Assembly (NCBI GenBank): GCA_903840015.1
Contig: CAIMEL010000022.1
Coordinates: 1-56,613, forward strand
Direction: 5' to 3'
Source: an uncultured bacterium
Lineage (GTDB): Bacteria > Patescibacteriota > Dojkabacteria > SC72
DNA length: 56,613 nucleotides
The notes below the pieces were generated by a model. It ran no database searches and had not been told where the DNA came from. It worked only from the letters and a program-made list of their open reading frames with translations. The position numbers and the translations under genes are program-made. Shown one piece after another: positions 8,543 through 30,401 of this stretch (its first letter is position 1; each line of letters begins with the position of its first letter).

Positions 8543-9685
8543 TTACATAAACATATTCTTCAAACTCTCTATATTAACAATATCTTTAATAATTACAAAG
8601 ACTATCAATACGATGAGAAGACCAAAACTAATATTTATTATCAAAGCTTCTACTCTTTCATCCAAATTCTTCCTCAACAAACCCTCTATAGTCAAGATAA
8701 AGACACGACCACCATCAAGAGCAGGTATTGGTAAGAGGTTAACTATTGCCAAAGAAAGAGATAGATCAGCAATAATGCTTAAGAAAGGTATCAATCCGAA
8801 ATCTTTAAAATAGTCTATAACAAAGTAGATACCAACTGGACCAGAAACTGAATTAGAAAGCTCTGTATAATCACCAGTATCCTGAGCCTTATTTATAATT
8901 TCACCAAATTTAATCCAAATTAATCGCAAGGTATTTACCAAGTGAACAGGCCCTGCAATCAACCTGTTATCTTCATACGACAGGATAACAAGATAGTTAC
9001 TTGGTAACGAAATACCAACCTTGCCTTCTGGAGAAACACCAACCAAATACTCTTTACACTCCTGATCTACACAGATATCCATAGATACATTCTGCCCTCG
9101 ATTCTCCCAGAGTAGAAGTCCAACCTCGTCTGAATTCTTAATATCTTGCCCTTGAATAGATACAATCTTACCCTTCTCAGGGATACCAGCCTTCTGTGCA
9201 CCCCCACCATCTAAAACTTCAAGATATTCCACATCCCCTATTCTTTCCCTGTAAAGCTCTCCTCCAATTGCATCGAATTTCTCAAATTCACTACCGATAA
9301 CAAGCTTCCATCCAGAGGCTCCAAGAACTATATAGTAAAAAAGTATTGCAAGGAAGATATTCATCGTAACTCCTGCAAGCATTACAAATATCTGTTGAAC
9401 TTTAGGCTTTTTCGATAAATTTCCCTTTGGATTAGACTTAGAATCCTCTTTTCCCGGATCTCCATCACCCAGAATCTTCACATAACCACCCAAGGGAAAC
9501 AACCTTATACTATACTGTGTACCTTTGAACTTCTTAGATATTAATTGGGGACCAAAGCCCAATGCAAATTCAAAAACTTTTGCTCCAACAATTTTCGCAG
9601 CTACAAAATGCCCCAACTCATGAACAAAAGTTAAGGTCCCTATAACTAGGATGAAAAGTAGGATATTTACAATCACAGATTCCAT
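8543..9685 (-). CDS. rseP: RIP metalloprotease RseP (M50 with PDZ-like domain)
   Basis: HELGH, GFGP, PLGGYV, SGPVGI and NLLPIPALDGG motifs. Confidence 0.92.
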   Translation of the reverse strand: MESVIVNILLFILVIGTLTFVHELGHFVAAKIVGAKVFEFALGFGPQLISKKFKGTQYSIRLFPLGGYVKILGDGDPGKEDSKSNPKGNLSKKPKVQQIFVMLAGVTMNIFLAILFYYIVLGASGWKLVIGSEFEKFDAIGGELYRERIGDVEYLEVLDGGGAQKAGIPEKGKIVSIQGQDIKNSDEVGLLLWENRGQNVSMDICVDQECKEYLVGVSPEGKVGISLPSNYLVILSYEDNRLIAGPVHLVNTLRLIWIKFGEIINKAQDTGDYTELSNSVSGPVGIYFVIDYFKDFGLIPFLSIIADLSLSLAIVNLLPIPALDGGRVFILTIEGLLRKNLDERVEALIINISFGLLIVLIVFVIIKDIVNIESLKNMFM

Positions 9686-9701
9686 TCAAGTAAAGTATAA
9701 A

Positions 9702-10262
9702 TTATATTGTTAAAAGATCCTTTTCTTTCTCCTCCCTAATATCTTCAATAGTCGTATTTGCAGATTTAACCTCTTTCTCGATCTCCTCTCGCAATCTGTC
9801 TGCTTCATCTTCAGAGAAACCTTCCTTCTGAGCTTCATCAATCTCCTTCATATACTTCTGTCTAACCTGTCTTACAGCAACTCTTCCATCTTCTATTCTC
9901 TCTTTCATAACTTTCACATACTCTCTCCTTCTTTCCTCTGTCAAATCAGGGATTTTAACCAACACCCTATCACCCTCTGTTATTGGTGAGAAACCAAGAT
10001 TTGCGGAATTTATCGCTTTAGAAATATTATCTAAAATACTCTTGTCCCATGGTTGAATAATTACAGTCTTTGCATCAAGAGCATTTATGGAAGCGAGATT
10101 TTTCAAAGGTGACGATGTCTCATAGGCATTCACCATAACATCCTCAACTAATTCAGGTGTAGCTCGACCTGTACGAATCTGTGAGAGATCCTCCTTTATA
10201 TGGGCAATACATTTAGCAATATCAATCTGAAATTGTTTGAAATCCATTTGCAAAATACTCAA
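9702..10262 (-). CDS. frr: Ribosome recycling factor (alternative ATG start at 10247)
   Basis: IRTGRA, IQPWD and PDLTEERR motifs; tsf-frr synteny. Confidence 0.95.
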   Translation of the reverse strand: MSILQMDFKQFQIDIAKCIAHIKEDLSQIRTGRATPELVEDVMVNAYETSSPLKNLASINALDAKTVIIQPWDKSILDNISKAINSANLGFSPITEGDRVLVKIPDLTEERRREYVKVMKERIEDGRVAVRQVRQKYMKEIDEAQKEGFSEDEADRLREEIEKEVKSANTTIEDIREEKEKDLLTI

Positions 10263-10301
10263 AGATTATTAGGATATTGTATCCCAATGGTATAATCTTG
10301 T

Positions 10302-11018
10302 CTACTTTTTACCTAACTCCCAAATAAGGATTCTGGAGATCTCCAAAGGCTCTCCCATTTTCTGGATTGCTTCATCTAAGAGATCTTTGATTGCTTTAGA
10401 TTCATCTTTAAACCATTTCTGCTCTAGAAGGCACTTCTCTGCATAATATTTATTTATCTTACCCTGAAGAATCTTCTCTATCATCTCCTTCGGCTTATTC
10501 TCTGACTCCAATTCCTTTGCGAATAGTGCCATAAGTTTTTCGACTTCCTCAGAAGGGACTGAATCTCTCGACACAAATTCCGGCTTCATTGCCGCAACTT
10601 GCAAAGATAACTCATGAACAAAACTTCTAAAATCCTCATTTCTTGCTACAAAGTCAGTCTTAGTCTTAACCTCAACAAGTGCTACTAACTTCTGCTCCTT
10701 ACCATGAACATAGACATCTATAACACCCTCCTGTTTCTGTTCACAATCAGGTTCTATTGGCTCATCCCAACCCCTTTCTTTTATAATTTCTACCGCCTTT
10801 TCAAAATCCTTTTCTGCCTCCTCTAATGCTAGCTTACAAAGACCTATCTTTGCACCGGTAAGATTTCGCAACCTACCGATGACATCACTTCTTTCATTTA
10901 TATACTCGATTGCCTTTGCCATATCACCATCACTCTTCACCAAAGCTTCCTTACACAACCCCATACCAGCAGAAGTTTTTGCTCGAAGCACTTTTATATC
11001 ATCTATTGTTACTCCCAT
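10302..11018 (-). CDS. tsf: Elongation factor Ts, short type, with duplicated N-terminal UBA-like domain
   Basis: LRAKTSAGMGLCKEAL, EG..YVH, TDFVARN, QVAAMKP; follows rpsB. Confidence 0.93.
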   Translation of the reverse strand: MGVTIDDIKVLRAKTSAGMGLCKEALVKSDGDMAKAIEYINERSDVIGRLRNLTGAKIGLCKLALEEAEKDFEKAVEIIKERGWDEPIEPDCEQKQEGVIDVYVHGKEQKLVALVEVKTKTDFVARNEDFRSFVHELSLQVAAMKPEFVSRDSVPSEEVEKLMALFAKELESENKPKEMIEKILQGKINKYYAEKCLLEQKWFKDESKAIKDLLDEAIQKMGEPLEISRILIWELGKK

Positions 11019-11036
11019 TAGATTGAAAACTAGAAA

Positions 11037-24589: not shown

Positions 24590-25009
24590 ATGAGAGACGA
24601 TATATTCACACCATTCAATTGCAAACCTACCCCTATGGAAATGGATCCTGATTCTCTTGCTGTAATTGCAGAGGAATTAAACGGATTCCTTGAAGAGAAT
24701 GACGTACCGGAGATGTTAGAGATGAGCGACTATGTACAAGCAACCTACGAAGCAGATAAATTCAGAGGACCACTCTTCAACATTACAAACATGGTAACAG
24801 AAGATGATGTTTTCCAAGTTATTCATTTAGGAAAAGCTATCAAACATGCTTTTCTACGAAGAAACTCAGATGGCAGTGTCGACTTCTTAGAGCACAACTT
24901 TGACAAAGGCTACAGAAATGCACTCCCGGACTGGTTTAGAGGTATATACAAAGGTATCCAGGTTGCAAAAGAGAGAGACTCTCTCAAATGGAAAGCTTCT
25001 TCAAAATAA
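24590..25009 (+). CDS. Hypothetical protein
   Basis: 139-aa ORF with natural composition, preceded by a TTTACA-17-TATAAT promoter; no recognised family. Confidence 0.6.
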   Translation: MRDDIFTPFNCKPTPMEMDPDSLAVIAEELNGFLEENDVPEMLEMSDYVQATYEADKFRGPLFNITNMVTEDDVFQVIHLGKAIKHAFLRRNSDGSVDFLEHNFDKGYRNALPDWFRGIYKGIQVAKERDSLKWKASSK

Positions 25010-25085
25010 TATTTGACCTAACAAACTATTTCCAATATAATACGAAGTATTTCCCATAATATACTAATTTTGATCCCTGAGGAAA

Positions 25086-25250
25086 ATGGCTAAAGTAAAA
25101 AGAGATATGATGGCTTTCAAGTGCGAGAAGTGTAATGAGAAAAACTACACAGCCTTCAAGACCAAAAATATCAAGGAGAAAATGCAAATTAAAAAGTACT
25201 GTTCAAGATGTCAGGAACATACAGTGCACAAGGAGACAAAGATAAAATAG
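25086..25250 (+). CDS. rpmG: 50S ribosomal protein bL33 (C+ zinc form)
   Basis: Manual translation MAKVKRDMMAFKCEKCNEKNYTAFKTKNIKEKMQIKKYCSRCQEHTVHKETKIK; rpmG-tRNA-Trp-secE-nusG synteny. Confidence 0.93.
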   Translation: MAKVKRDMMAFKCEKCNEKNYTAFKTKNIKEKMQIKKYCSRCQEHTVHKETKIK

Positions 25251-25251
25251 A

Positions 25252-25264
25252 CGCTCTTTACCAA
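25252..25264 (+). promoter_or_regulatory. boxA-like antitermination site upstream of tRNA-Trp
   Basis: CGCTCTTTACCAA, close to the rrn boxA consensus GCTCTTTAACA. Confidence 0.45.
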
Positions 25265-25268
25265 ACCT

Positions 25269-25343
25269 GGGCCCATAGTTTCAATGGTAAAATAGCGGTC
25301 TCCAAAACCGTGGTTCTCCGTTCGAATCGGAGTGGGCCTGCCA
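25269..25343 (+). tRNA. tRNA-Trp(CCA)
   Basis: Anticodon arm GCGGT-CTCCAAA-ACCGT, TTCGAAT T-loop, CCA end. Confidence 0.95.
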
Positions 25344-25353
25344 AAACAGAAAT

Positions 25354-25527
25354 ATGAAAACGATAAAAAATATAATAACAGAACTAAAATCTACAAAGTG
25401 GCCATCTAAATTAGAAATATTGCAGATGACCATATACACCATTATCCTTTGTGCTGTACTTGCAGCCATAATGGTTGGTTTAGATCTAGTACTGTTCAAA
25501 GTAAGAGATTGGTTTCTTAATATTTAA
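25354..25527 (+). CDS. secE: Preprotein translocase subunit SecE
   Basis: Manual translation MKTIKNIITELKSTKWPSKLEILQMTIYTIILCAVLAAIMVGLDLVLF..., with the EL...WP motif and one TM, upstream of nusG. Confidence 0.92.
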   Translation: MKTIKNIITELKSTKWPSKLEILQMTIYTIILCAVLAAIMVGLDLVLFKVRDWFLNI

Positions 25528-25537
25528 AATATAGAAA

Positions 25538-26101
25538 ATGGAAAAAGAAATAAAAAAGAGTAAGAAAAAAGAAAATCCTAATGCCAAGTGGTATGTACTA
25601 AATATCCGAACAGGATATGAGAATAGTATTCAGAAGGAGATAAAACAGAGAGCAGAAGCAACAGGGATGGAAGACAAAATTGTTGAGATTCTTGTACCCG
25701 TACAGAAGAAGATCTTTGTTAAAAAGGGTAAACAGGATATAAAGGAAGAGAAGATTTTTCCTGGCTATGTGTTAATAAAAATGGAATTGGAGAATAAGAC
25801 TTGGGATTTGGTACAAAATACTGAAGGAGTTAGGGGATTTGTAAAAACTGATAGATATCCAAAACCATTAGCAGAATCAGAGGTTAAGGCCATCACCAAA
25901 TTCATGGAAGTTGAACAACCATCATATCAGTCCTCATTTAGTATTGGAGAAGCAGTAAAAATTACTGAAGGTGCATTCGCAGATTTCATAGGTAGCGTAC
26001 AGGAGATTGATACAACTAAGGGTAAGATAAAAGTCCTCATCTCATTCTTAGGAAGAGAAGCTCCTGTTGAGTTAGAGCTATCTCAAGTTACAAAACTTTA
26101 A
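25538..26101 (+). CDS. nusG: Transcription termination/antitermination factor NusG
   Basis: WYV..G.E, FPGYVLI, GVRGFV and a KOW domain (GAFADFIG..FLGREAPVEL). Confidence 0.96.
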   Translation: MEKEIKKSKKKENPNAKWYVLNIRTGYENSIQKEIKQRAEATGMEDKIVEILVPVQKKIFVKKGKQDIKEEKIFPGYVLIKMELENKTWDLVQNTEGVRGFVKTDRYPKPLAESEVKAITKFMEVEQPSYQSSFSIGEAVKITEGAFADFIGSVQEIDTTKGKIKVLISFLGREAPVELELSQVTKL

Positions 26102-26118
26102 TTGATATATAAATAGCA

Positions 26119-26544
26119 ATGGCAAAACCGATAAAAAAAGTTATCAAAATAACTATTCCAGCAGGGATGGCAACTATGGCCCCCCCTATTGGCCCTACAC
26201 TTGCTCCTTACGGAATTAACACACAGGATTTCTGTGCTCAATTCAATGAGAAAACAAGAGAGAACAATGGTATCTTAACTCCAGTCATTTTGACTATCTA
26301 CGATGATAGATCTTTTTCTTTCATTCTAAAAACTCCCCCTACTTCAGAATTGATTAGGAGAGAGTTGAAGATAAGTAAGGGTTCAGACAAACCAAACTTG
26401 AACAAAGTTGGCAAACTTTCTAAAGAGCAATTACAAAGAATCATAGAAGTTAAAATGCCAGATTTAAATACATCGGATCCAAAACAGGCAGCTAAAATAA
26501 TTGCTGGTACTGCAAAACAGATGGGTATCGAGATAGAAGTTTAA
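26119..26544 (+). CDS. rplK: 50S ribosomal protein uL11
   Basis: PAGMAT.APPIGP, FCAQFN, KTPPTS, GTAKQMG. Confidence 0.96.
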   Translation: MAKPIKKVIKITIPAGMATMAPPIGPTLAPYGINTQDFCAQFNEKTRENNGILTPVILTIYDDRSFSFILKTPPTSELIRRELKISKGSDKPNLNKVGKLSKEQLQRIIEVKMPDLNTSDPKQAAKIIAGTAKQMGIEIEV

Positions 26545-26561
26545 TTGATAGAAAAACAAAC

Positions 26562-27251
26562 ATGAAAAGAGGAAAAAAACATATAAAAGTAACCAAAGAC
26601 CTAGACAGATCAAAGACATACTCTTTGGTAGATGGAATAAAAAAAGTTAAAACACTTTCTTACAGCAAATTTGTTGGGACATTAGAAATACATGTAGATA
26701 TTAAGTTACCTAAAGATAAAGATCCTAAATCTCTCAAAGGTGCAGTATCTTTACCCCACTCTAGTACGGCGAAAGACATTAAGATTGCAGTCTTTACTAC
26801 ACCAGACAGAGACGAAGAAGCTACAAATGCAGGTGCTGATTTAGTAGGTATGGATAAACTTGTCAAAGATGTTAAGGCTGGCAAGATCGAGTTTGATATT
26901 GCAATAGCATCACCATCAGTCATGCCTAAAATAGCTATAATTGGAAAAGAGTTAGGTCCAAAAGGATTAATGCCAAACCCAAAGAATGGTACAGTTACAG
27001 ATGATATTGTTAAGGCAATACAGGAATACAAGAAGGGCAAACAAACATTCGCATGCGACGCATCAGGTGTTGTACATATGAATGTTGGGAAATTGGACCT
27101 TGAGACAGAGAAATTAATAGAAAATATAGAAACTGCAATTGCTTCAATTTCCGATGTGGTTGGAAAACCAACTGAGCAAATGATACAGCGTATGCACCTT
27201 GCCCCTACTATGGGACCAAGTGTGAAAATCGCATATTCAAAACAAGTCTAA
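26562..27251 (+). CDS. rplA: 50S ribosomal protein uL1
   Basis: LPH, LGPKGLMPNPKNGTVT, TMGP motifs. Confidence 0.96.
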   Translation: MKRGKKHIKVTKDLDRSKTYSLVDGIKKVKTLSYSKFVGTLEIHVDIKLPKDKDPKSLKGAVSLPHSSTAKDIKIAVFTTPDRDEEATNAGADLVGMDKLVKDVKAGKIEFDIAIASPSVMPKIAIIGKELGPKGLMPNPKNGTVTDDIVKAIQEYKKGKQTFACDASGVVHMNVGKLDLETEKLIENIETAIASISDVVGKPTEQMIQRMHLAPTMGPSVKIAYSKQV

Positions 27252-27278
27252 CCCATAGGCTATCTTATGTGAATTTAG

Positions 27279-27305
27279 AAGACCTCCTTCGGAGGTCTTT
27301 TTCTT
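27279..27305 (+). terminator. Intrinsic terminator after rplA
   Basis: AAGACCTCC-TTC-GGAGGTCTT hairpin followed by a T-run. Confidence 0.85.
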
Positions 27306-27308
27306 TAG

Positions 27309-27337
27309 TTTACAAAAAACACAACATCCTATAGAAT
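27309..27337 (+). promoter_or_regulatory. Promoter of cassette 1
   Basis: TTTACA-17 nt-TAGAAT. Confidence 0.7.
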
Positions 27338-27383
27338 ATGGTTTGTCTTTGCTCTTTAGGGAAACAGATCACGGGAGAATTAC

Positions 27384-27728
27384 ATGGCACAGGAAATAGT
27401 AGTAAACGGTCAGACGTACACCATTTTAAAAGAGTATGGAGATGCACATCTCGCACAGCTAGGAGATGACCATTTCTTACTCATTCCACGATTAAAGGAG
27501 GTATTAAAAATCAGGAAGTGCGAAGAGATTCGCGTTACTCTCCGGAACTGCAAAACACTTCTTCTCAACGAGCTATCGTTCGTTAGAAAATCCCCAAGAG
27601 ATTTTCAAAGCTCACGAGAGAATCAAGGCAGAGAGAGCAATATCTTCGTAAAAGTTGGAAAGAAATCCATGATTATTATCTTCGACAAAGAAATGGTCTT
27701 GGATCGAATCTGCGTTCCACAGTTCTAG
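27384..27728 (+). CDS. Hypothetical protein (cassette 1)
   Basis: 114-aa ORF with GGGAG SD and its own promoter; the N-terminal part aligns by eye with the cassette 2 ORF. Confidence 0.65.
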   Translation: MAQEIVVNGQTYTILKEYGDAHLAQLGDDHFLLIPRLKEVLKIRKCEEIRVTLRNCKTLLLNELSFVRKSPRDFQSSRENQGRESNIFVKVGKKSMIIIFDKEMVLDRICVPQF

Positions 27729-27754
27729 AAATCAAACCCTAAAGACAAGACAAA

Positions 27755-27826
27755 GTGAGTCTGGTAGAAGAATGCTGATTAGCAATATAGAAGTATTTCA
27801 GCTTCATCCATTTCTACCAGACTCAC
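27755..27826. repeat. Long imperfect hairpin, copy 1
   Basis: GTGAGTCTGGTAGAA/TTCTACCAGACTCAC 15-bp perfect arms with inner GAA(T)GCTGA/TCAGCTTC stem. Confidence 0.85.
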
Positions 27827-27834
27827 CACAACCC

Positions 27835-27863
27835 TTTACAAATCCCAGTATAAAGCGTAAAAT
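27835..27863 (+). promoter_or_regulatory. Promoter of cassette 2
   Basis: TTTACA-17 nt-TAAAAT. Confidence 0.7.
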
Positions 27864-27910
27864 CACATTCCAAGCTCTTACCAATACACAGAAAAGGAGA
27901 TAACTACAGA

Positions 27911-28069
27911 ATGGTCAAGATATACACAGTATGCGGCAAGGAACGGTTTTCCTGGAATGGGAAGATATTCTTCCTCCTCTTCCACCGAAACGGTATATAC
28001 ATCGGGAAACACCAATCCAAAATCTACGTTTTCGTTGAGAAAACCGAGGAATTGATACAGATCGAATAA
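27911..28069 (+). CDS. Small hypothetical protein, 52 aa (cassette 2)
   Basis: AAAAGGAGA SD; MVKIYTVCGKERFSWNGKIFFLLFHRNGIYIGKHQSKIYVFVEKTEELIQIE; below the ORF-track size cutoff. Confidence 0.6.
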   Translation: MVKIYTVCGKERFSWNGKIFFLLFHRNGIYIGKHQSKIYVFVEKTEELIQIE

Positions 28070-28088
28070 CAGTATTGGTAAGCACAAA

Positions 28089-28163
28089 AGAGAGTCTGGT
28101 AAAGAATGCCTCGTGGGCTAAACACTTTCGCCTCATAGGCTTCATACCATTACCAGACTCTCT
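28089..28163. repeat. Long imperfect hairpin, copy 2
   Basis: AGAGAGTCTGGTAA/TTACCAGACTCTCT arms; shares GAGTCTGGTA, AAGAATGC, GCTTCAT and TACCAGACTC with copy 1. Confidence 0.85.
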
Positions 28164-28169
28164 CCTCTC

Positions 28170-28198
28170 TTTACATGGTTTGGGAATAAGGGTAAAAT
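28170..28198 (+). promoter_or_regulatory. Promoter of cassette 3
   Basis: TTTACA-17 nt-TAAAAT. Confidence 0.7.
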
Positions 28199-28258
28199 TA
28201 CTTGGCAACAAGCCTGTTGCTCTTACCAACACCCTAAAAAGAAAAGGAGATTATTATC

Positions 28259-28429
28259 ATGGAATGCAAGTTCTGTAATAAGGAATGCAATGCTAATTGT
28301 CCGTGCTTCGCACTCAAGAAGCTCATTGAAACAGAAATTCTACGAGCGGAGGTGACGAAGCTTCCAGAAGAAGAAAAGATTGTATTCCTAGAGGAAGTAT
28401 TAGTAATGGAGGGATTGGCACCAATCTAA
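28259..28429 (+). CDS. Small Cys-rich hypothetical protein, 56 aa (cassette 3)
   Basis: AAAAGGAGA SD; MECKFCNKECNANCPCFALKKLIETEILRAEVTKLPEEEKIVFLEEVLVMEGLAPI. Confidence 0.6.
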   Translation: MECKFCNKECNANCPCFALKKLIETEILRAEVTKLPEEEKIVFLEEVLVMEGLAPI

Positions 28430-28462
28430 GGTTTCAAAAATTAAAGCAACGGCTTTGTTAAG

Positions 28463-28516
28463 CAAGAGAGGATGATTGATTTCATCAACATATGTATCAC
28501 ATATCATCCTCTCTTG
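28463..28516. repeat. Long hairpin closing cassette 3
   Basis: CAAGAGAGGATGAT/ATCATCCTCTCTTG 14-bp perfect arms. Confidence 0.75.
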
Positions 28517-28542
28517 ACCCTCCCCTCTCCTACTGCTATAAT
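28514..28542 (+). promoter_or_regulatory. Promoter of rplJ-rplL
   Basis: TTGACC-17 nt-TATAAT with an extended TG. Confidence 0.75.
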
Positions 28543-28552
28543 CAGCCTAGTT

Positions 28553-28599
28553 TGTAACCAAAGAAACAGGGTATCAAAATAAATCCCTGCGAGGTTATA
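28553..28599 (+). promoter_or_regulatory. L10 leader (rplJ autoregulatory RNA)
   Basis: TGTAACC-AAAGAAA-CAGGG...CCCTG-CGA-GGTTATA fits the L10-leader pattern and sits directly upstream of rplJ. Confidence 0.7.
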
Positions 28600-28628
28600 C
28601 TACAATTCTATTTTAAAAATCTATTACA

Positions 28629-29150
28629 ATGTCTAAAACTCGTTCTCAGAAGACAGAGTTGCTGAATAAGTATAAAGAGATCCTTGAAACAAAAAAGGGA
28701 TATCTTTTGGTAAACTCTGACAAAACAAATACCTCTACAGTTACAAAGCTCAAGATACAGCTAAAAGATGTAGATGCTAACTACGCCGTTGTAAAGAACA
28801 GTATCTTTAAAGTTGCATTGCAGGAAACAAATCAACCACTTCAAACACAAGAGTTAGATGGTCCAACAGCAATAATATACTTTGAGGAAGATCCAACAGG
28901 TGCAGCGAAACTAGTTAAACAAACACAGAAAGAATCTGAGCTTTTGTCAGCAAAAGGAGGAGTCTTCGAAGGAGAATTTCTTTCAGAGGAGAGAGTTATG
29001 CAATTAGCAGAGATTCCTTCAAGAGAAGTTCTACTATCAAGATTGGTTGGGACAATGAATGCACCTCTTACAGGATTTATGAATGCTGTTACTGGCAATG
29101 TTCGAGGTTTAACTATGGTTCTGAAGGGCATATCTGAAAAGAATGCTTAA
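28629..29150 (+). CDS. rplJ: 50S ribosomal protein uL10
   Basis: VVKNS, L.GPT, LA.IPSRE.L motifs. Confidence 0.94.
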   Translation: MSKTRSQKTELLNKYKEILETKKGYLLVNSDKTNTSTVTKLKIQLKDVDANYAVVKNSIFKVALQETNQPLQTQELDGPTAIIYFEEDPTGAAKLVKQTQKESELLSAKGGVFEGEFLSEERVMQLAEIPSREVLLSRLVGTMNAPLTGFMNAVTGNVRGLTMVLKGISEKNA

Positions 29151-29186
29151 TTAGATACAAATACTTAATTTAATATACAAACTAAT

Positions 29187-29591
29187 ATGGCAGAAGAAAC
29201 AAAGACCTTACCTGAGCTATCAGAGAATGGTAATAAAGTTCTTGAAATAGTTGAGAAAATGTCTGTCTTGGAACTTGCTGATCTTGTAAAAGTGATGGAA
29301 GACAAGTTTGGAGTAAGTGCAGCAGCTCCAGTTGCAGTTGCAGCAGTTGCAGCAGCTCCAGCAGAGGAAGTAGAAGAGAAATCTACTTTTGACATCATCC
29401 TCAAGGAAGCAGGTGCAAACAAGATCGGAGTAATCAAGGCTGTTAGAGAAATAACAGAGTTGGGACTCAAAGAAGCTAAGGATCTTGTAGAAGCAGCTCC
29501 TCAGACTGTTAAAGAGGGAGTAGCAAAAGCAGATGCAGAGGCTATCAAAGCCAAATTTGAAGAAGCAGGTGCAAAAGTAGAATTAGCATAA
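29187..29591 (+). CDS. rplL: 50S ribosomal protein bL12
   Basis: Ala-rich hinge, [20 protein letters not shown]. Confidence 0.97.
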
Positions 29592-29614
29592 ATCTTCTTG
29601 AATTAGGTCATATG

Positions 29615-29642
29615 GAGGCTACCTTACGGTAGCCTCTTTTTT
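29615..29642 (+). terminator. Intrinsic terminator after rplL
   Basis: GAGGCTACC-TTAC-GGTAGCCTC followed by T6. Confidence 0.85.
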
Positions 29643-29732
29643 ATTCACCATATCGACAAAACATACTATGAAGAAGTATAATCTTAGCAATCTGCCATAA
29701 CTAAATATATCTAAGCTATTAGCGTAAAAACA

Positions 29733-30401
29733 ATGGATTACTCACCACTAACATTGTGGATTTTAGAAAATGGTGTATCTGAACAAACGCTTGACTTGTT
29801 TGTAACTATAACAATACTCGCAACCATAGTTAGTATCGCAAGATATATATTTGGTTCCAAGACATATGGAATATATGCCCCTATAATTCTAGCCATAGCT
29901 TACTCCTACACAGGTTTTCGATATGGATTAGCAATTACCTTTGTTGTCATAGCTACTACCCTACTTTCTTATTCCATACTTAAGAAGATTAGGATGCACT
30001 ACATAACTCGTATTGCCATAAATTACTGTTTACTTTCAATCTCATTGGTTATTTTCTTTCTCCTAATCGGGAAGTATAGTTTAGGCTTGGACAATATGTC
30101 ACAAATACCCTCTCTGGCAGTAATATCTATTGCCGCCCTATCCGATTTCTTCATAAAGCAGTTTGTACAAAAATCTTTCAAGACTGCAGTTATGGTTCTT
30201 TTCTCAACACTAGTTGTTGCCTCAATTGGTTGGTATGTAATATCAAGAGATGTAGTCACAGCATACACCATAAACAACCTATGGTTAGTTCCCCTATTCA
30301 TAGCAATTAATCTAGGCATTGGCCAGTTTAAAGGCTTAAGAGTAAAAGATCTTTTCCGTTTTAACTCAATATTGAAAGAGAAGGACAATGTTTCAAAGTA
30401 A
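29733..30401 (+). CDS. 7TM membrane protein of the transglutaminase-associated 7TM type
   Basis: R...G.KTYGIY.P.IL motif, about seven TMs, terminal G.F.GLR..DL.RF; overlaps the start of the ATP-grasp gene. Confidence 0.75.
   Translation: MDYSPLTLWILENGVSEQTLDLFVTITILATIVSIARYIFGSKTYGIYAPIILAIAYSYTGFRYGLAITFVVIATTLLSYSILKKIRMHYITRIAINYCLLSISLVIFFLLIGKYSLGLDNMSQIPSLAVISIAALSDFFIKQFVQKSFKTAVMVLFSTLVVASIGWYVISRDVVTAYTINNLWLVPLFIAINLGIGQFKGLRVKDLFRFNSILKEKDNVSK

What the first reader, a model, noticed from the sequence alone, without database searches (positions are those of the whole stretch)
27309..28516. Three-unit cassette array between rplA and rplJ: promoter, boxA-like site, small ORF bracketed by complementary arms, long hairpin
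Seen: rplA and rplJ, usually adjacent, are separated by three units with the same layout but different cargo. Each unit opens with TTTACA-17-TA(G/A)AAT (27309, 27835, 28170), then a GCTCTT motif, a GGAGA-type SD and a small ORF (114, 52 and 56 aa), then a 3' arm complementary to its own 5' leader, then a 54-75 nt hairpin that abuts the next -35. The arms are unit-specific: 27342-27361 (TTTGTCTTTGCTCTTTAGGG) with 27737-27754 (CCCTAAAGACAAGACAAA); 27877-27887 (CTTACCAATAC) with 28072-28082 (GTATTGGTAAG); about 28207-28221 (AACAAGCCTGTTGCT) with 28445-28459 (AGCAACGGCTTTGTT). Pairing is therefore kept while sequence differs. Inference: a modular expression or mobility unit whose transcript closes into an ORF-containing loop. 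Options include a processed or circularised RNA, a 5'-3' silenced mRNA as in type I toxin messages, or an exchangeable gene cassette. I do not recognise this as a described element, and no recombinase or RT gene is in the window.
Basis: partly seen in the sequence, partly recalled or inferred. Interest (0 to 1): 0.85.

Follow-up and report, generated by a model that had tools for sequence, protein, structure and literature searches.

The report
Small-gene modules with paired mRNA ends
Between two ribosomal-protein genes of a tiny uncultured bacterium sit three self-contained small-gene units whose predicted messages fold so that their two ends pair next to a long hairpin, a design shared across the bacterial family and better conserved than the proteins it carries.

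Summary
At 27309-28516, three units each hold a promoter, a boxA-like GCTCTT leader, a Shine-Dalgarno site, a small ORF, a 3' arm complementary to the leader, and a long hairpin next to the following -35.

- **Not chance.** Own leader and own trailer share a perfect helix of 9 bp or more in 38 of 72 units across the family. The figure is 166 of 4434 for cross-genus pairs and 28 of 1440 for shuffles.
- **Folding.** Each unit's predicted fold closes through its arms (z -6.7, -4.2, -3.5).
- **RNA.** Metatranscriptome contigs from three studies cover the ORFs as separate pieces that end near the arms.
- **Relatives.** The two nearest relatives carry the same three units in the same order. More widely, the rplA-rplJ interval runs from 122 to over 4384 bp and holds different cargo types within single genera. 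Similar arrays lie between ychF and rpsF in relatives.
- **Conservation.** The non-coding scaffold is 98-100% identical where ORFs are 32-65% identical.

Best reading (0.5): these are autonomous small-gene modules. A leader-trailer helix beside a 3' stem-loop controls RNA processing and decay, as in B. subtilis hbs and in rRNA operons. I found no support for circular RNA, and no recombinase gene in the window. I rate it a new variant of a known kind.

The parts
27279..27306 (+). rplA terminator: short G+C-rich hairpin followed by a T run. It shows that canonical terminators exist at this locus.
   Evidence: weak terminator-like Rfam rows at this place
27309..27337 (+). Unit 1 promoter: -35 TTTACA (27309-27314) and extended -10 TATAGAAT (27330-27337)
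   Evidence: the same promoter form is conserved in units of other genera
27342..27361 (+). Unit 1 5' arm. It begins 5 nt after the -10 and contains the boxA-like GCTCTT (27351-27356).
27384..27728 (+). ORF1, 114 aa, with SD GGGAGAA at 27373-27379. A lineage-specific all-beta small protein.
27737..27754 (+). Unit 1 3' arm. It pairs with 27342-27361 and directly abuts hairpin 1.
27755..27826 (+). Hairpin 1: 15-bp perfect stem, 42-nt loop, no T run after it
   Evidence: (I2)
27835..27863 (+). Unit 2 promoter: TTTACA, N17, TAAAAT
27874..27887 (+). Unit 2 boxA-like GCTCTT (27874-27879) overlapping the 5' arm (27877-27887)
   Evidence: (I13)
27911..28069 (+). ORF2, 52 aa, with SD AAGGAGAT at 27894-27901
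   Evidence: dN/dS 0.18 between G009 and G015
28072..28082 (+). Unit 2 3' arm: 11 nt, 100% complementary to 27877-27887
   Evidence: (I13)
28089..28163 (+). Hairpin 2: 14-bp perfect stem, 47-nt loop. It shares the stem core GAGTCTGGTA with hairpin 1.
   Evidence: (I1, D5, D15)
28170..28198 (+). Unit 3 promoter: TTTACA, N17, TAAAAT
28207..28224 (+). Unit 3 5' arm (28207-28221; itself partly palindromic) and boxA-like GCTCTT (28219-28224)
28259..28429 (+). ORF3, 56 aa, with SD at 28244-28251. It has a Cys-rich N-terminus and a C-terminal EGLxPI motif. The family was found only upstream of rplJ.
28445..28459 (+). Unit 3 3' arm
28463..28516 (+). Hairpin 3: 14-bp perfect stem, 26-nt loop. This type is conserved in genera g1, g2, g4, g7, g41 and g43. 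Its 3' end overlaps the rplJ -35.
   Evidence: (I5)
28514..28628 (+). rplJ promoter (-35 TTGACC at 28514-28519, -10 TATAAT at 28537-28542) and conserved rplJ leader
   Evidence: RNA-library contigs begin at 28540 and 28564

Best explanation
Each unit is a self-contained small-gene module.

How it is built:
- A sigma-70-type promoter starts a transcript whose first nucleotides (the 5' arm, carrying a boxA-like GYTCTT) pair with the 3'-UTR segment lying directly in front of a long stem-loop.
- The folded message is therefore a loop holding the SD and ORF, closed by a leader-trailer helix stacked on a terminal hairpin.

What it most likely does:
- The helix and hairpin set where the RNA is cut and how long it lasts, by limiting access of RNase J, RNase Y, RNase III and 3' exonucleases.
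- They also separate the module from the next promoter.
- The cargo is a set of lineage-specific, fast-evolving small proteins of unknown role.
- The modules form a family that sits in arrays beside ribosomal-protein operons, and their cargo types are replaced among species.

Shown here: the anatomy, its conservation and covariation, the predicted fold, and the presence of ORF-spanning pieces in RNA libraries.

Inferred: the transcription starts, termination or cleavage at the hairpins, which nucleases act, and the effect on stability.
For: **Arms are specific to their own unit.** A perfect helix of 9 bp or more occurs in 38 of 72 own leader-trailer pairs, 166 of 4434 cross-genus pairs and 28 of 1440 shuffled tails.

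**Arm sequences differ but stay complementary.** This holds between genera and between cargo types. In the ORF1 family the outer helix TGTCTT/AAGACA is constant, while the inner helices change on both sides.

**The 5' arm lies inside the predicted transcript.** In 28 of 31 units with a recognisable promoter, the 5' arm core starts 5-21 nt after the -10.

**A strong hairpin follows the 3' arm.** The 100 nt after it fold with median z -5.3. That is z below -2 in 34 of 38 units, against 4 of 37 control segments inside rplA. The hairpin starts 0-10 nt after the arm.

**The whole-unit folds close through the arms.** Minimum-energy and centroid folds of all three window units do so, next to the hairpin. 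The z-scores are -6.74, -4.18 and -3.50, and no shuffle folds as well.

**The boxA-like motif is strand-specific.** GYTCTT occurs in 31 of 72 leaders, 0 of 72 reverse complements, 0 of 72 ORF segments and 42 of 1440 shuffles.

**RNA libraries of three studies hold separate contigs over each ORF:**
- Unit 1: 27362-27749, 27374-27764 and 27416-27759.
- Unit 2: 27891-28058 and 27904-28082.
- Unit 3: 28259-28464 and 28276-28473.
- Two contigs join adapter-like letters exactly at 27362 (the first base after the 5' arm) and at 27374.
- Contigs of 2-3 studies stop within 15 nt of the base of hairpins 1 and 3, where DNA contigs run on (27371-27902 and 28340-29200). This is a weak hint only.

**The scaffold is under strong constraint.** Comparing G009 with G015:
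- hairpin 1 plus promoter 2: 98-100% identical over about 120 nt
- rplA: dS 0.90
- ORF1 windows: 32-65% identical
- ORF3 windows: 32-45% identical

**The relevant nucleases are encoded.** RNase J, RNase Y, RNase III and NusB genes are present.

**A direct precedent exists.** B. subtilis hbs mRNA has a 14-bp interaction between its 5' UTR and a sequence just upstream of its terminator, and this interaction limits RNase cleavage (PMC5737220; abstract and section 16 read).

**The genome's own 16S has the same layout.** Its leader has a boxA-like motif inside the 5' strand of the leader-trailer helix.
Against: - The RNA-library contigs do not include the 5' arms (except one read-through contig, 27021-27374, in X16) or the hairpins. 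The abundant species may therefore lack the closure, which would make the paired form at most a precursor.
- Contigs show neither strand nor true ends, and RNA libraries can hold DNA.
- Mismatches in extended arms are 5 G.U-type against 3 A.C-type. The pairing could therefore equally be a DNA-level inverted repeat.
- 34 of 72 units have a perfect helix below 9 bp. Some of these pair only with bulges.
- The hairpins lack the T run that the neighbouring rplA terminator has, so termination there is unproven.
- Across the genome, gene-flanking helices are barely enriched: 20 of 624 own pairs against 10 of 624 control pairs at 9 bp or more. This is a special design, not a general one.
- The units are related to each other, so the counts are not independent.
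Confidence: 0.5

Rival explanations
1. The modules work like miniature rRNA operons. NusB/S10 binds the boxA-like leader during transcription. The modified polymerase carries the leader along until the trailer is made. The leader-trailer helix plus the stacked hairpin is then cut by RNase III, releasing a defined small mRNA. The arms serve as a processing signal, not as a shield. This would tie output to free S10/NusB, and so to ribosome supply.
For: - The layout promoter, boxA-like motif, 5' strand, cargo, 3' strand matches the genome's own 16S flanks, where a boxA-like motif lies inside the leader strand.
- The GYTCTT enrichment is strand-specific.
- nusB and rnc are present, and adjacent, at C4:152139-153213.
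- One RNA contig end with adapter-like letters falls exactly at the inner edge of the unit 1 5' arm, at 27362. Contigs stop at or just inside the hairpin stems.
- The modules sit beside r-protein operons.
- BoxA is known to regulate genes other than rRNA (PMC5725501, passages read).
- The leader-trailer helix is essential for 16S maturation (PMC10250234, abstract read).
Against: - The motif matches the gamma-proteobacterial consensus GYTCTTTAANA (PMC5725501) only in part. That consensus may not apply in this lineage.
- The observed 5' boundary (inner edge of the helix) and 3' boundaries (outer edge, or inside the hairpin) are not the staggered pair that one RNase III cut across the arm helix would give.
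- Each unit has its own promoter, so excision from a long precursor is not needed.
- No binding or cleavage data exist.
Confidence: 0.2
2. The arms and hairpins act in DNA. They would be recombination or exchange sites of a gene-cassette system that inserts, deletes or swaps small genes at fixed slots next to r-protein promoters.
For: - The interval is hypervariable: 122 to 4384 bp in 75 genomes, and 456 to over 7000 bp within the genus.
- Arrays are present between ychF and rpsF in G009, G015 and G036 but absent in G000.
- Different cargo types occupy the rplJ-proximal slot within genera g2, g7 and g43, each type with its own arm sequence.
- G009 ORF3 groups with a g43 protein at 100/100 support, and monophyly of the genus's ORF3 is rejected at p-AU 0.0011.
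- The flanks are far better conserved than the cargo.
- The G.U versus A.C count does not favour RNA.
Against: - No recombinase lies in the window. The genome's two tyrosine recombinase hits are on other contigs, C3 and C17. No reverse transcriptase was found.
- The ORF1 and ORF3 families were found only at this one locus, apart from two weak hits (E 0.002 and 0.009) for ORF1 and one (E 0.002) for ORF3. That covers 14 strong ORF1 hits and 17 genomes with ORF3, of 100 genomes searched each.
- The 5' arm is always inside the transcribed leader and never includes the promoter.
- The laid DNA run shows no deletion or inversion joints.
- Cargo divergence is compatible with fast vertical evolution at rplA dS 0.90.
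- The patchiness can also come from homologous recombination through rplA and rplJ, or from loss of old paralogues.
- The AU-test group was noticed before the tree was built, and the alignment has only 60 columns.
Confidence: 0.12
3. The inverted repeats are operator sites for DNA-binding regulators that control the adjacent promoters. The hairpin would act before each -35. The palindromic unit 3 arm would be repeated after the promoter and before the rplJ promoter.
For: - The unit 3 5' arm is itself a near-palindrome, and its 3' partner is therefore a second copy. G092 has a perfect palindrome at the same place.
- Every hairpin ends 0-8 nt from a -35.
- Hairpin and promoter are 98-100% identical between G009 and G015.
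- A preprint reports that palindromes encoding terminator stems can double as factor binding sites (10.64898/2026.08.19.745784; I saw only the section heading in the outline, plus the abstract and section 5).
Against: - The arms of units 1 and 2, and of most family units, are not palindromes. They differ between units while staying complementary to their own partner. That fits pairing, not a shared protein site.
- Stem halves 26-47 nt apart are far apart for a dimer operator.
- No regulator is known.
Confidence: 0.05
4. The paired ends serve RNA circularisation, or a type I toxin-style fold-back that keeps a toxic message silent until it is processed.
For: - In the predicted fold, the 5' end lies next to the base of the terminal hairpin, with a gap of 0-10 nt.
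- Fold-back of mRNA ends is known for hok-type toxin messages (recalled, not read here).
Against: - No back-joint was seen in three RNA-library runs (contigs can miss rare forms).
- No RtcB was found in the genome.
- The ORFs are not short hydrophobic peptides.
- No antisense gene was seen.
Confidence: 0.03

Closest known systems
5'/3'-UTR long-range interaction of Bacillus subtilis hbs mRNA (PMC5737220)
   Same: - A small, monocistronic gene.
- A 5'-UTR segment pairs with a fully complementary segment just upstream of the 3' stem-loop (14 bp in hbs; 11-20 nt here).
- The host has the RNase J and RNase Y type of decay machinery.
- The observed RNA pieces begin about 20 nt before the start codon in two units (27362 and 27891). 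This recalls trimming up to an initiating ribosome.
   Different: - Here the 5' arm lies at the very start of the predicted transcript, whereas in hbs it follows leader hairpins.
- The 3' structure is a long-loop hairpin without a T run.
- The design is repeated as a family of modules in tandem arrays, with covarying arms.
- No experiment has been done.
rRNA operon leader-trailer helix with boxA (PMC10250234, PMC5725501)
   Same: - A promoter, a boxA-like motif in the leader, and complementary flanks that enclose the cargo.
- The genome's own 16S flanks show the same nesting of the motif in the helix.
   Different: - The cargo is a translated ORF with an SD, not an rRNA.
- The helices are shorter.
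- An extra terminal hairpin follows.
- The motif fits the published consensus only in part.
Integron gene cassettes
   Same: - Arrays of small, mostly unknown genes, each followed by an imperfect hairpin-forming site.
- Variable content at a fixed chromosomal place.
   Different: - Every unit has its own promoter.
- The hairpin is preceded by an arm that pairs with the unit's own leader.
- No integrase gene lies beside the array.
Promoter-coupled terminators (preprint 10.64898/2026.08.19.745784)
   Same: The 3' stem-loop of one unit lies directly against the promoter of the next.
   Different: - In that work, termination sites lie about 10 bp before the next start and share the -10 region (section 5 read).
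- Here the hairpin ends before or at the -35, and there is no T run.
hok-type type I toxin mRNAs (recalled, not read here)
   Same: The 5' and 3' ends of the message fold back on each other.
   Different: The cargo is not a small hydrophobic toxin, and no antisense RNA gene was seen.

Membership tests
hbs-type 5'/3'-UTR long-range interaction | A complementary segment in the 5' UTR and just upstream of the 3' stem-loop of the same mRNA | tested here: met
hbs-type 5'/3'-UTR long-range interaction | Pairing occurs in the cell (compensatory changes restore the behaviour) | tested here: inconclusive
   Natural compensatory changes occur between genera and cargo types. The G.U versus A.C count is 5 against 3. 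No experiment was possible.
hbs-type 5'/3'-UTR long-range interaction | The interaction modulates RNase Y/J cleavage and mRNA stability | not testable with these tools
   Only the presence of the RNase J and RNase Y genes is shown.
rRNA-type boxA plus leader-trailer helix | A BoxA sequence bound by NusB/S10 (published gamma-proteobacterial consensus GYTCTTTAANA, PMC5725501) | tested here: inconclusive
   GYTCTT occurs in 31 of 72 leaders, on the sense strand only. The full consensus is met only in part, and binding is untested.
rRNA-type boxA plus leader-trailer helix | Complementary leader and trailer enclosing the cargo | tested here: met
   the genome's own 16S flanks for comparison
rRNA-type boxA plus leader-trailer helix | The cargo is a stable RNA | tested here: not met
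   The cargo is an ORF with an SD, conserved as protein. There is no Rfam match in 25000-30000 except a tRNA.
Integron gene cassette array | Promoterless cassettes expressed from a common promoter | tested here: not met
   Each unit has its own -35/-10.
Integron gene cassette array | An integron integrase gene next to the array | tested here: not met
   The PF00589 hits lie only on contigs C3 and C17, not on the window's contig.
Integron gene cassette array | attC sites with their conserved core motifs and extrahelical bases | not tested
   No attC model was available. I did not compare the hairpins formally with the consensus.
Type I toxin-antitoxin message | A small hydrophobic toxic peptide | tested here: not met
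   ORF sequences. ORF1 models as all-beta and ORF3 as two helices. Toxicity itself is untested.
Type I toxin-antitoxin message | A cis-encoded antisense RNA | not tested
   The contigs give no strand.
Any Rfam RNA family | Match at E of 1 or less to a curated covariance model | tested here: not met
   within 27340-28630 there are no rows. Weak rows appear only at the rplA terminator.

The most novel reading that the evidence does not exclude
The modules are portable 'gene capsules' built on the plan of an rRNA operon.

- A boxA-like leader recruits the Nus complex.
- A leader-trailer helix stacked on a long hairpin then defines, seals or excises a small mRNA.
- This non-coding scaffold, more conserved than its protein cargo, is the unit that is duplicated into arrays beside ribosomal-protein operons and into which different small-protein genes are swapped over evolutionary time.

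If so, it would be a recombinase-free cassette system in an ultra-small genome, with expression tied to ribosome supply.
Probability: 0.2. Interest if true: 0.8.

Novelty: new variant of a known kind. Interest (0 to 1): 0.62.

Why it matters
[quoted passage not shown] Here it appears as a repeated, evolving design principle:

- The module family is conserved across at least nine genera of one family of ultra-small genomes.
- The arms covary between units.
- The scaffold is under stronger constraint than the proteins it expresses.
- The modules sit next to ribosomal-protein promoters.

This offers a natural series of compensatory variants for studying how the ends of an mRNA control its processing and decay in organisms that cannot yet be grown alone. 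It also flags a set of fast-evolving, expressed small proteins with no known relatives. Finally, it shows that the rplA-rplJ junction, normally treated as a fixed marker region, is a variable slot in this lineage.

Tried and rejected
**Protein annotation of the cargo gave nothing usable.**
- Pfam had no hit above threshold.
- PHROGs gave one weak row for a relative's protein. PADLOC gave none.
- The ORF3 profile found only 10 proteins among 5.8 billion, none with a name or a Pfam family.
- The ORF1 model had no PDB match at E of 0.001 or less by Foldseek. Its best Z by VIA-align was 4.2 over 47 residues.

**RNA versus DNA pairing.** The G.U versus A.C count was too small to decide, 5 against 3.

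**Genome-wide scans in G000.**
- Gene-flanking helices and arm-plus-hairpin combinations showed no general enrichment.
- They did yield one clear further module (C4:109617-109175) and some chance hits. For example, the C4:13333 partner lies inside a coding region.

**Pattern searches.**
- ATAGAAT-N(4-9)-GTCTTT over 100 family genomes gave counts similar to the reversed-pattern control. I used it only to spot tandem hits.
The one locus I read (L133) is not a module. This scan says nothing about distribution.
- The search for related loci could not use alignments A1 or A2.

**Read laying.**
- The stretches 27765-27890, 28083-28258 and 28474-28539 have no cover in the listed RNA-library contigs.
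- No back-joint, inversion or deletion joint was listed.
- The single joint (X16, 28597 to 28785, side 29) comes from a record with 5 other letters. I did not follow it and take it to be another organism or a strain.
- Depths were not used to rank genes.

**Literature.** Searches found no description of these modules. Supplements were not consulted.

**Taxonomy.** I did not establish it. 'Patescibacteria-like' is my inference from genome size (0.68 Mb), G+C content (about 36%) and habitat labels.

**Rows left out.**
- Of the 88 other genomes with an RplJ match, 76 were fetched.
- G001 and G011 had no rplA within 7 kb.
- G016 (208 N) was excluded from the unit calling.
- ORFs under 40 aa or over 190 aa, and ORFs overlapping a longer one, were dropped before the 72-unit counts.


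Full report
**Context**

The window is contig C22 of a 680,604-base, 25-contig genome with about 36% G+C. The region lies in the usual rpmG-tRNA-secE-nusG-rplK-rplA / rplJ-rplL cluster. rplA ends at 27251 and is followed by a canonical terminator, a hairpin plus T run at 27279-27306. rplJ starts at 28629. The 1377 bases between them hold the finding.

**Checking the observation**

- Three TTTACA-N17-TA(G/A)AAT promoters lie at 27309, 27835 and 28170. Each is followed by GCTCTT (27351, 27874, 28219), a Shine-Dalgarno site and an ORF of 114, 52 or 56 aa.
- A search for promoter plus GCTCTT finds 3 places in the whole genome, all here.
- The three hairpins have perfect stems of 15, 14 and 14 bp with loops of 42, 47 and 26 nt. 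Only 4 hairpins with a stem of 14 bp or more were found in the genome, and 3 of them are these.
- Hairpins 1 and 2 share the stem core GAGTCTGGTA, which occurs nowhere else in the genome.
- The unit 2 arms are an exact 11-nt inverted repeat (I13).
- The arms of units 1 and 3 are imperfect. They form the closing helix in both the minimum-energy and the centroid folds of the predicted transcripts, directly next to the terminal hairpin. The z-scores are -6.74, -4.18 and -3.50, and no shuffle folds as well.
- No Rfam family matches the region.

**Relatives**

I located rplJ in 89 of 100 genomes of the family. I fetched the upstream DNA of 76 of the 88 other genomes and measured the rplA-rplJ interval in 75, including G000.

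- The interval runs from 122 to 4384 bp with a median of 755. In two more genomes rplA is not within 7 kb.
- In the window's own genus alone it runs from 456 bp upward.
- The two nearest relatives, G009 and G015, carry the same three units in the same order, with homologous ORFs.
- Other congeners have one such unit (G018, G004), two (G003), unrelated genes such as a 326-329-aa ORF, or nothing recognisable.
- In most genera the common plan is: rplA terminator, promoter, 5' arm, boxA-like motif, SD, small and often Cys-rich ORF, 3' arm, hairpin, rplJ promoter, conserved rplJ leader.
- The hairpin type of unit 3 (stem beginning CAAGAGAGG) recurs in genera g1, g2, g4, g7, g41 and g43. Its 3' end is always at the rplJ -35.

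**Are the arms real?**

I called 72 small-ORF units (40-190 aa, with an SD, non-overlapping) in 51 genomes.

- The longest perfect helix between a unit's own leader and own trailer is 9 bp or more in 38 of 72. The same holds for 166 of 4434 cross-genus pairs and 28 of 1440 shuffled trailers.
- Arm sequences differ between genera and cargo types but stay complementary. Examples:
  - TTGACAGACTAA with TTAGTCTGTCAA
  - CAAACCAACC with GGTTGGTTTG
  - GTCTACCGAGA with TCTCGGTAGAC
  - TTAGTAGTTTT with AAAACTACTAA
- Within the ORF1 family, the outer helix TGTCTT/AAGACA is constant and the inner helices change on both sides.
- The 5' arm core starts 5-21 nt after the -10 in 28 of 31 units with a recognisable promoter. 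The other three values are mis-assigned helices. The arm therefore lies at the very start of the predicted transcript.
- The 100 nt after the 3' arm fold far better than shuffles. Median z is -5.3, and 34 of 38 units fall below -2, against 4 of 37 control segments inside rplA. The hairpin begins 0-10 nt after the arm.
- GYTCTT is strand-specific: 31 of 72 leaders, 0 of 72 reverse complements, 0 of 72 ORF segments and 42 of 1440 shuffles.
- The units are related to one another, so these counts overstate independence.
- A count of G.U-type against A.C-type mismatches (5 against 3) does not tell RNA pairing from a DNA inverted repeat.

**RNA evidence**

Twenty public runs hold the stretch, six of them RNA libraries. 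I laid three RNA libraries from three studies and one DNA run. All are contigs, so strand, level and true ends are not shown, and RNA libraries can contain DNA.

| Region | RNA-library contigs |
|---|---|
| ORF1 | 27362-27749, 27374-27764, 27416-27759 |
| ORF2 | 27891-28058, 27904-28082 |
| ORF3 | 28259-28464, 28276-28473 |
| rplJ | from 28540 and from 28564 |

- Two contigs carry adapter-like loose letters directly before 27362 and before 27374. Position 27362 is the first base after the unit 1 5' arm. This suggests many fragments begin at those two places.
- Contigs of two or three studies stop within about 15 nt of the base of hairpins 1 and 3, where DNA contigs run on (27371-27902 and 28340-29200). 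The tool rates this as a weak hint.
- One RNA-library contig reads from rplA through the terminator and promoter 1 to 27374.
- No back-joint was listed.

Taken together, the pieces fit separately accumulating small RNAs bounded near the arms. They also suggest that the abundant form lacks the 5' arm and the hairpin.

**The cargo**

- *ORF1.* It belongs to a family with 14 strong hits in 100 family genomes (genera g1, g15, g40), all at this locus. Its model is confident (pLDDT 85.7, pTM 0.77, all-beta), with no convincing fold match.
- *ORF3.* It belongs to a family with a Cys-rich N-terminus and a C-terminal EGLxPI motif. The model has pLDDT 85.6. The family was found in 17 of 100 family genomes, always upstream of rplJ apart from one weak hit. 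Only 10 relatives turned up among 5.8 billion proteins, none named.
- *Rate of change.* The proteins evolve very fast. The table compares G009 with G015.

| Segment | dN | dS | Windowed nt identity |
|---|---|---|---|
| rplA | 0.05 | 0.90 | 70-95% |
| ORF1 | 0.70 | 1.30 | 32-65% |
| ORF2 | 0.15 | 0.82 | 70-90% |
| ORF3 | 0.95 | saturated | 32-45% |
| Hairpin 1 + promoter 2 (about 120 nt) | - | - | 98-100% |

By my own Jukes-Cantor estimate, neutral sites at dS 0.90 would be about 48% identical. The non-coding scaffold is therefore the most constrained part of the locus.

**Cassette-like behaviour**

- The slot next to rplJ holds different cargo types within genera g2, g7 and g43. Each type travels with its own arm sequence and hairpin type across genera. 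The classes were set by my own motif rules.
- In a tree of 13 ORF3-family proteins, G009 groups with a g43 protein at 100/100 support. Holding the three g1 proteins together is rejected at p-AU 0.0011, and holding G009 with G015 at p-AU 0.0018. I had noticed the resemblance before the test, and only 60 columns were used.
- Modules with the same promoter, a TGTCTTT start, a boxA-like motif, a trailer ending AAAGACA and a long hairpin also form a three-unit array between ychF and rpsF in G009, and apparently in G015, where I saw only three tandem promoter-leader pattern hits with the same spacing and did not read the fetched DNA. At least two units lie upstream of rpsF in G036. G000 has none there.
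- G000 has one more module elsewhere: C4:109617-109175 on the minus strand. It encodes a 112-aa membrane protein, with 12-bp arms abutting the hairpin.
- No recombinase gene lies on the window's contig. No reverse transcriptase and no RtcB was found in the 96.6%-complete genome.

**Mechanism**

The best-supported reading is an RNA-level one: autonomous small-gene modules whose message is closed by a leader-trailer helix next to a 3' stem-loop.

- *hbs precedent.* The closest studied case is B. subtilis hbs. There, a 14-bp interaction between the 5' UTR and a sequence just upstream of the terminator restrains RNase Y cleavage, and compensatory mutations restore the behaviour (PMC5737220; abstract and section 16 read).
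- *Decay machinery.* This genome encodes RNase J, RNase Y (split over two contig ends) and RNase III.
- *rRNA operon precedent.* The second precedent is the rRNA operon. In this genome's own 16S flanks, a boxA-like motif lies inside the 5' strand of the leader-trailer helix, just as GCTCTT lies inside or beside the 5' arms. nusB is present, next to rnc. BoxA is known to regulate mRNAs as well as rRNA (PMC5725501, passages read). The leader-trailer helix is essential for 16S maturation (PMC10250234, abstract read).
- *Open question.* Whether the helix protects the message (hbs-like) or marks it for excision (rRNA-like) cannot be decided from contigs. The observed boundaries are a 5' end at the inner edge of the helix and 3' ends at or just inside the hairpin. 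They fit neither a simple sealed transcript nor a single staggered RNase III cut.
- *Hairpins.* They lack a T run, so they are not canonical terminators. Their position against the next -35 recalls promoter-coupled terminators (preprint 10.64898/2026.08.19.745784; abstract and section 5 read), although the geometry differs.

**Novelty**

My literature searches found no description of such modules, and Rfam has no model for them. The principle of 5'/3' pairing beside a 3' stem-loop is known. What appears new is the rest:

- its use as a repeated, arrayed module family beside ribosomal-protein operons;
- the covarying arms;
- a scaffold more conserved than its fast-evolving cargo.

I therefore rate it a new variant of a known kind.

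Noticed in passing
G000 contig C4:109617-109175 (minus strand; outside the window): A further module of the same design. A 5' arm directly follows a -10-like TATATT, then a 112-aa membrane-protein ORF, a 12-nt fully complementary 3' arm abutting a long-loop hairpin, and a stem beginning AAGAGGGGAAT.
   Followed up: partly
L096 (G009:C43:1-2100, minus strand); L097 (G015:C2:7700-10500); L092/L098 (G036:C2): Tandem arrays of modules between ychF and rpsF: three units in G009, and at least two in G036. In G015 I saw only three tandem promoter-leader pattern hits with the same spacing and did not read the fetched DNA. The G009 units share near-identical arms (TGTCTTTTTGCAG with CTGCAAAAAGACA) and ORFs of 139-146 aa. 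G000's ychF-rpsF interval is about 130 nt and has none.
   Followed up: partly
window 28544-28628: The rplJ leader is conserved across the family (a run like CCTAAGAAACAGGGTA ... AAATCCCTGCGAGG, with a small stem). It gives no Rfam L10-leader match at E of 1 or less.
   Followed up: no
G000 contig C17, flanks of the 16S gene at 9486-11034 (minus strand): The 16S leader-trailer helix (GTGACAGGAAGTC with GACTTTCCTGTCAC) extends to include a boxA-like AGCTCCTTAAAAG in the leader strand. tRNA genes follow the 16S.
   Followed up: partly
G000 contig C4:152139-153213: nusB (152139-152519) lies directly upstream of the RNase III gene (152560-153213).
   Followed up: no
G000 contig C4:39850-40260: A small predicted membrane peptide gene with a boxA-like leader (CTGCTCTTTA) and a long-loop hairpin after the stop, but no clear arms.
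   Followed up: no
window 28206-28221; L031 (G092): The unit 3 5' arm is itself a near-palindrome (GCAACAAGCCTGTTGC; a perfect one in G092). It could form a local hairpin or a protein site as an alternative to the long-range pairing.
   Followed up: no
rplA-rplJ intervals of G008, G013, G017, G019 and G010 (loci L016, L022, L020, L017, L023): A 326-329-aa ORF with an N-terminal GGSGHIGN motif occupies the interval in these congeners, plus a second 327-aa ORF in G010. I did not search either against any library.
   Followed up: no
window 25269-25340: A tRNA gene (53.2 bits) lies between rpmG and secE.
   Followed up: no
window 26900-29200, DNA runs X2-X14: Sludge and wastewater DNA runs from many studies hold only 0.68-0.86 of the sampled words. 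The laid DNA run shows two contig variants at 27270-27400 and at 27961-28075. This is strain-level variation inside the array.
   Followed up: no
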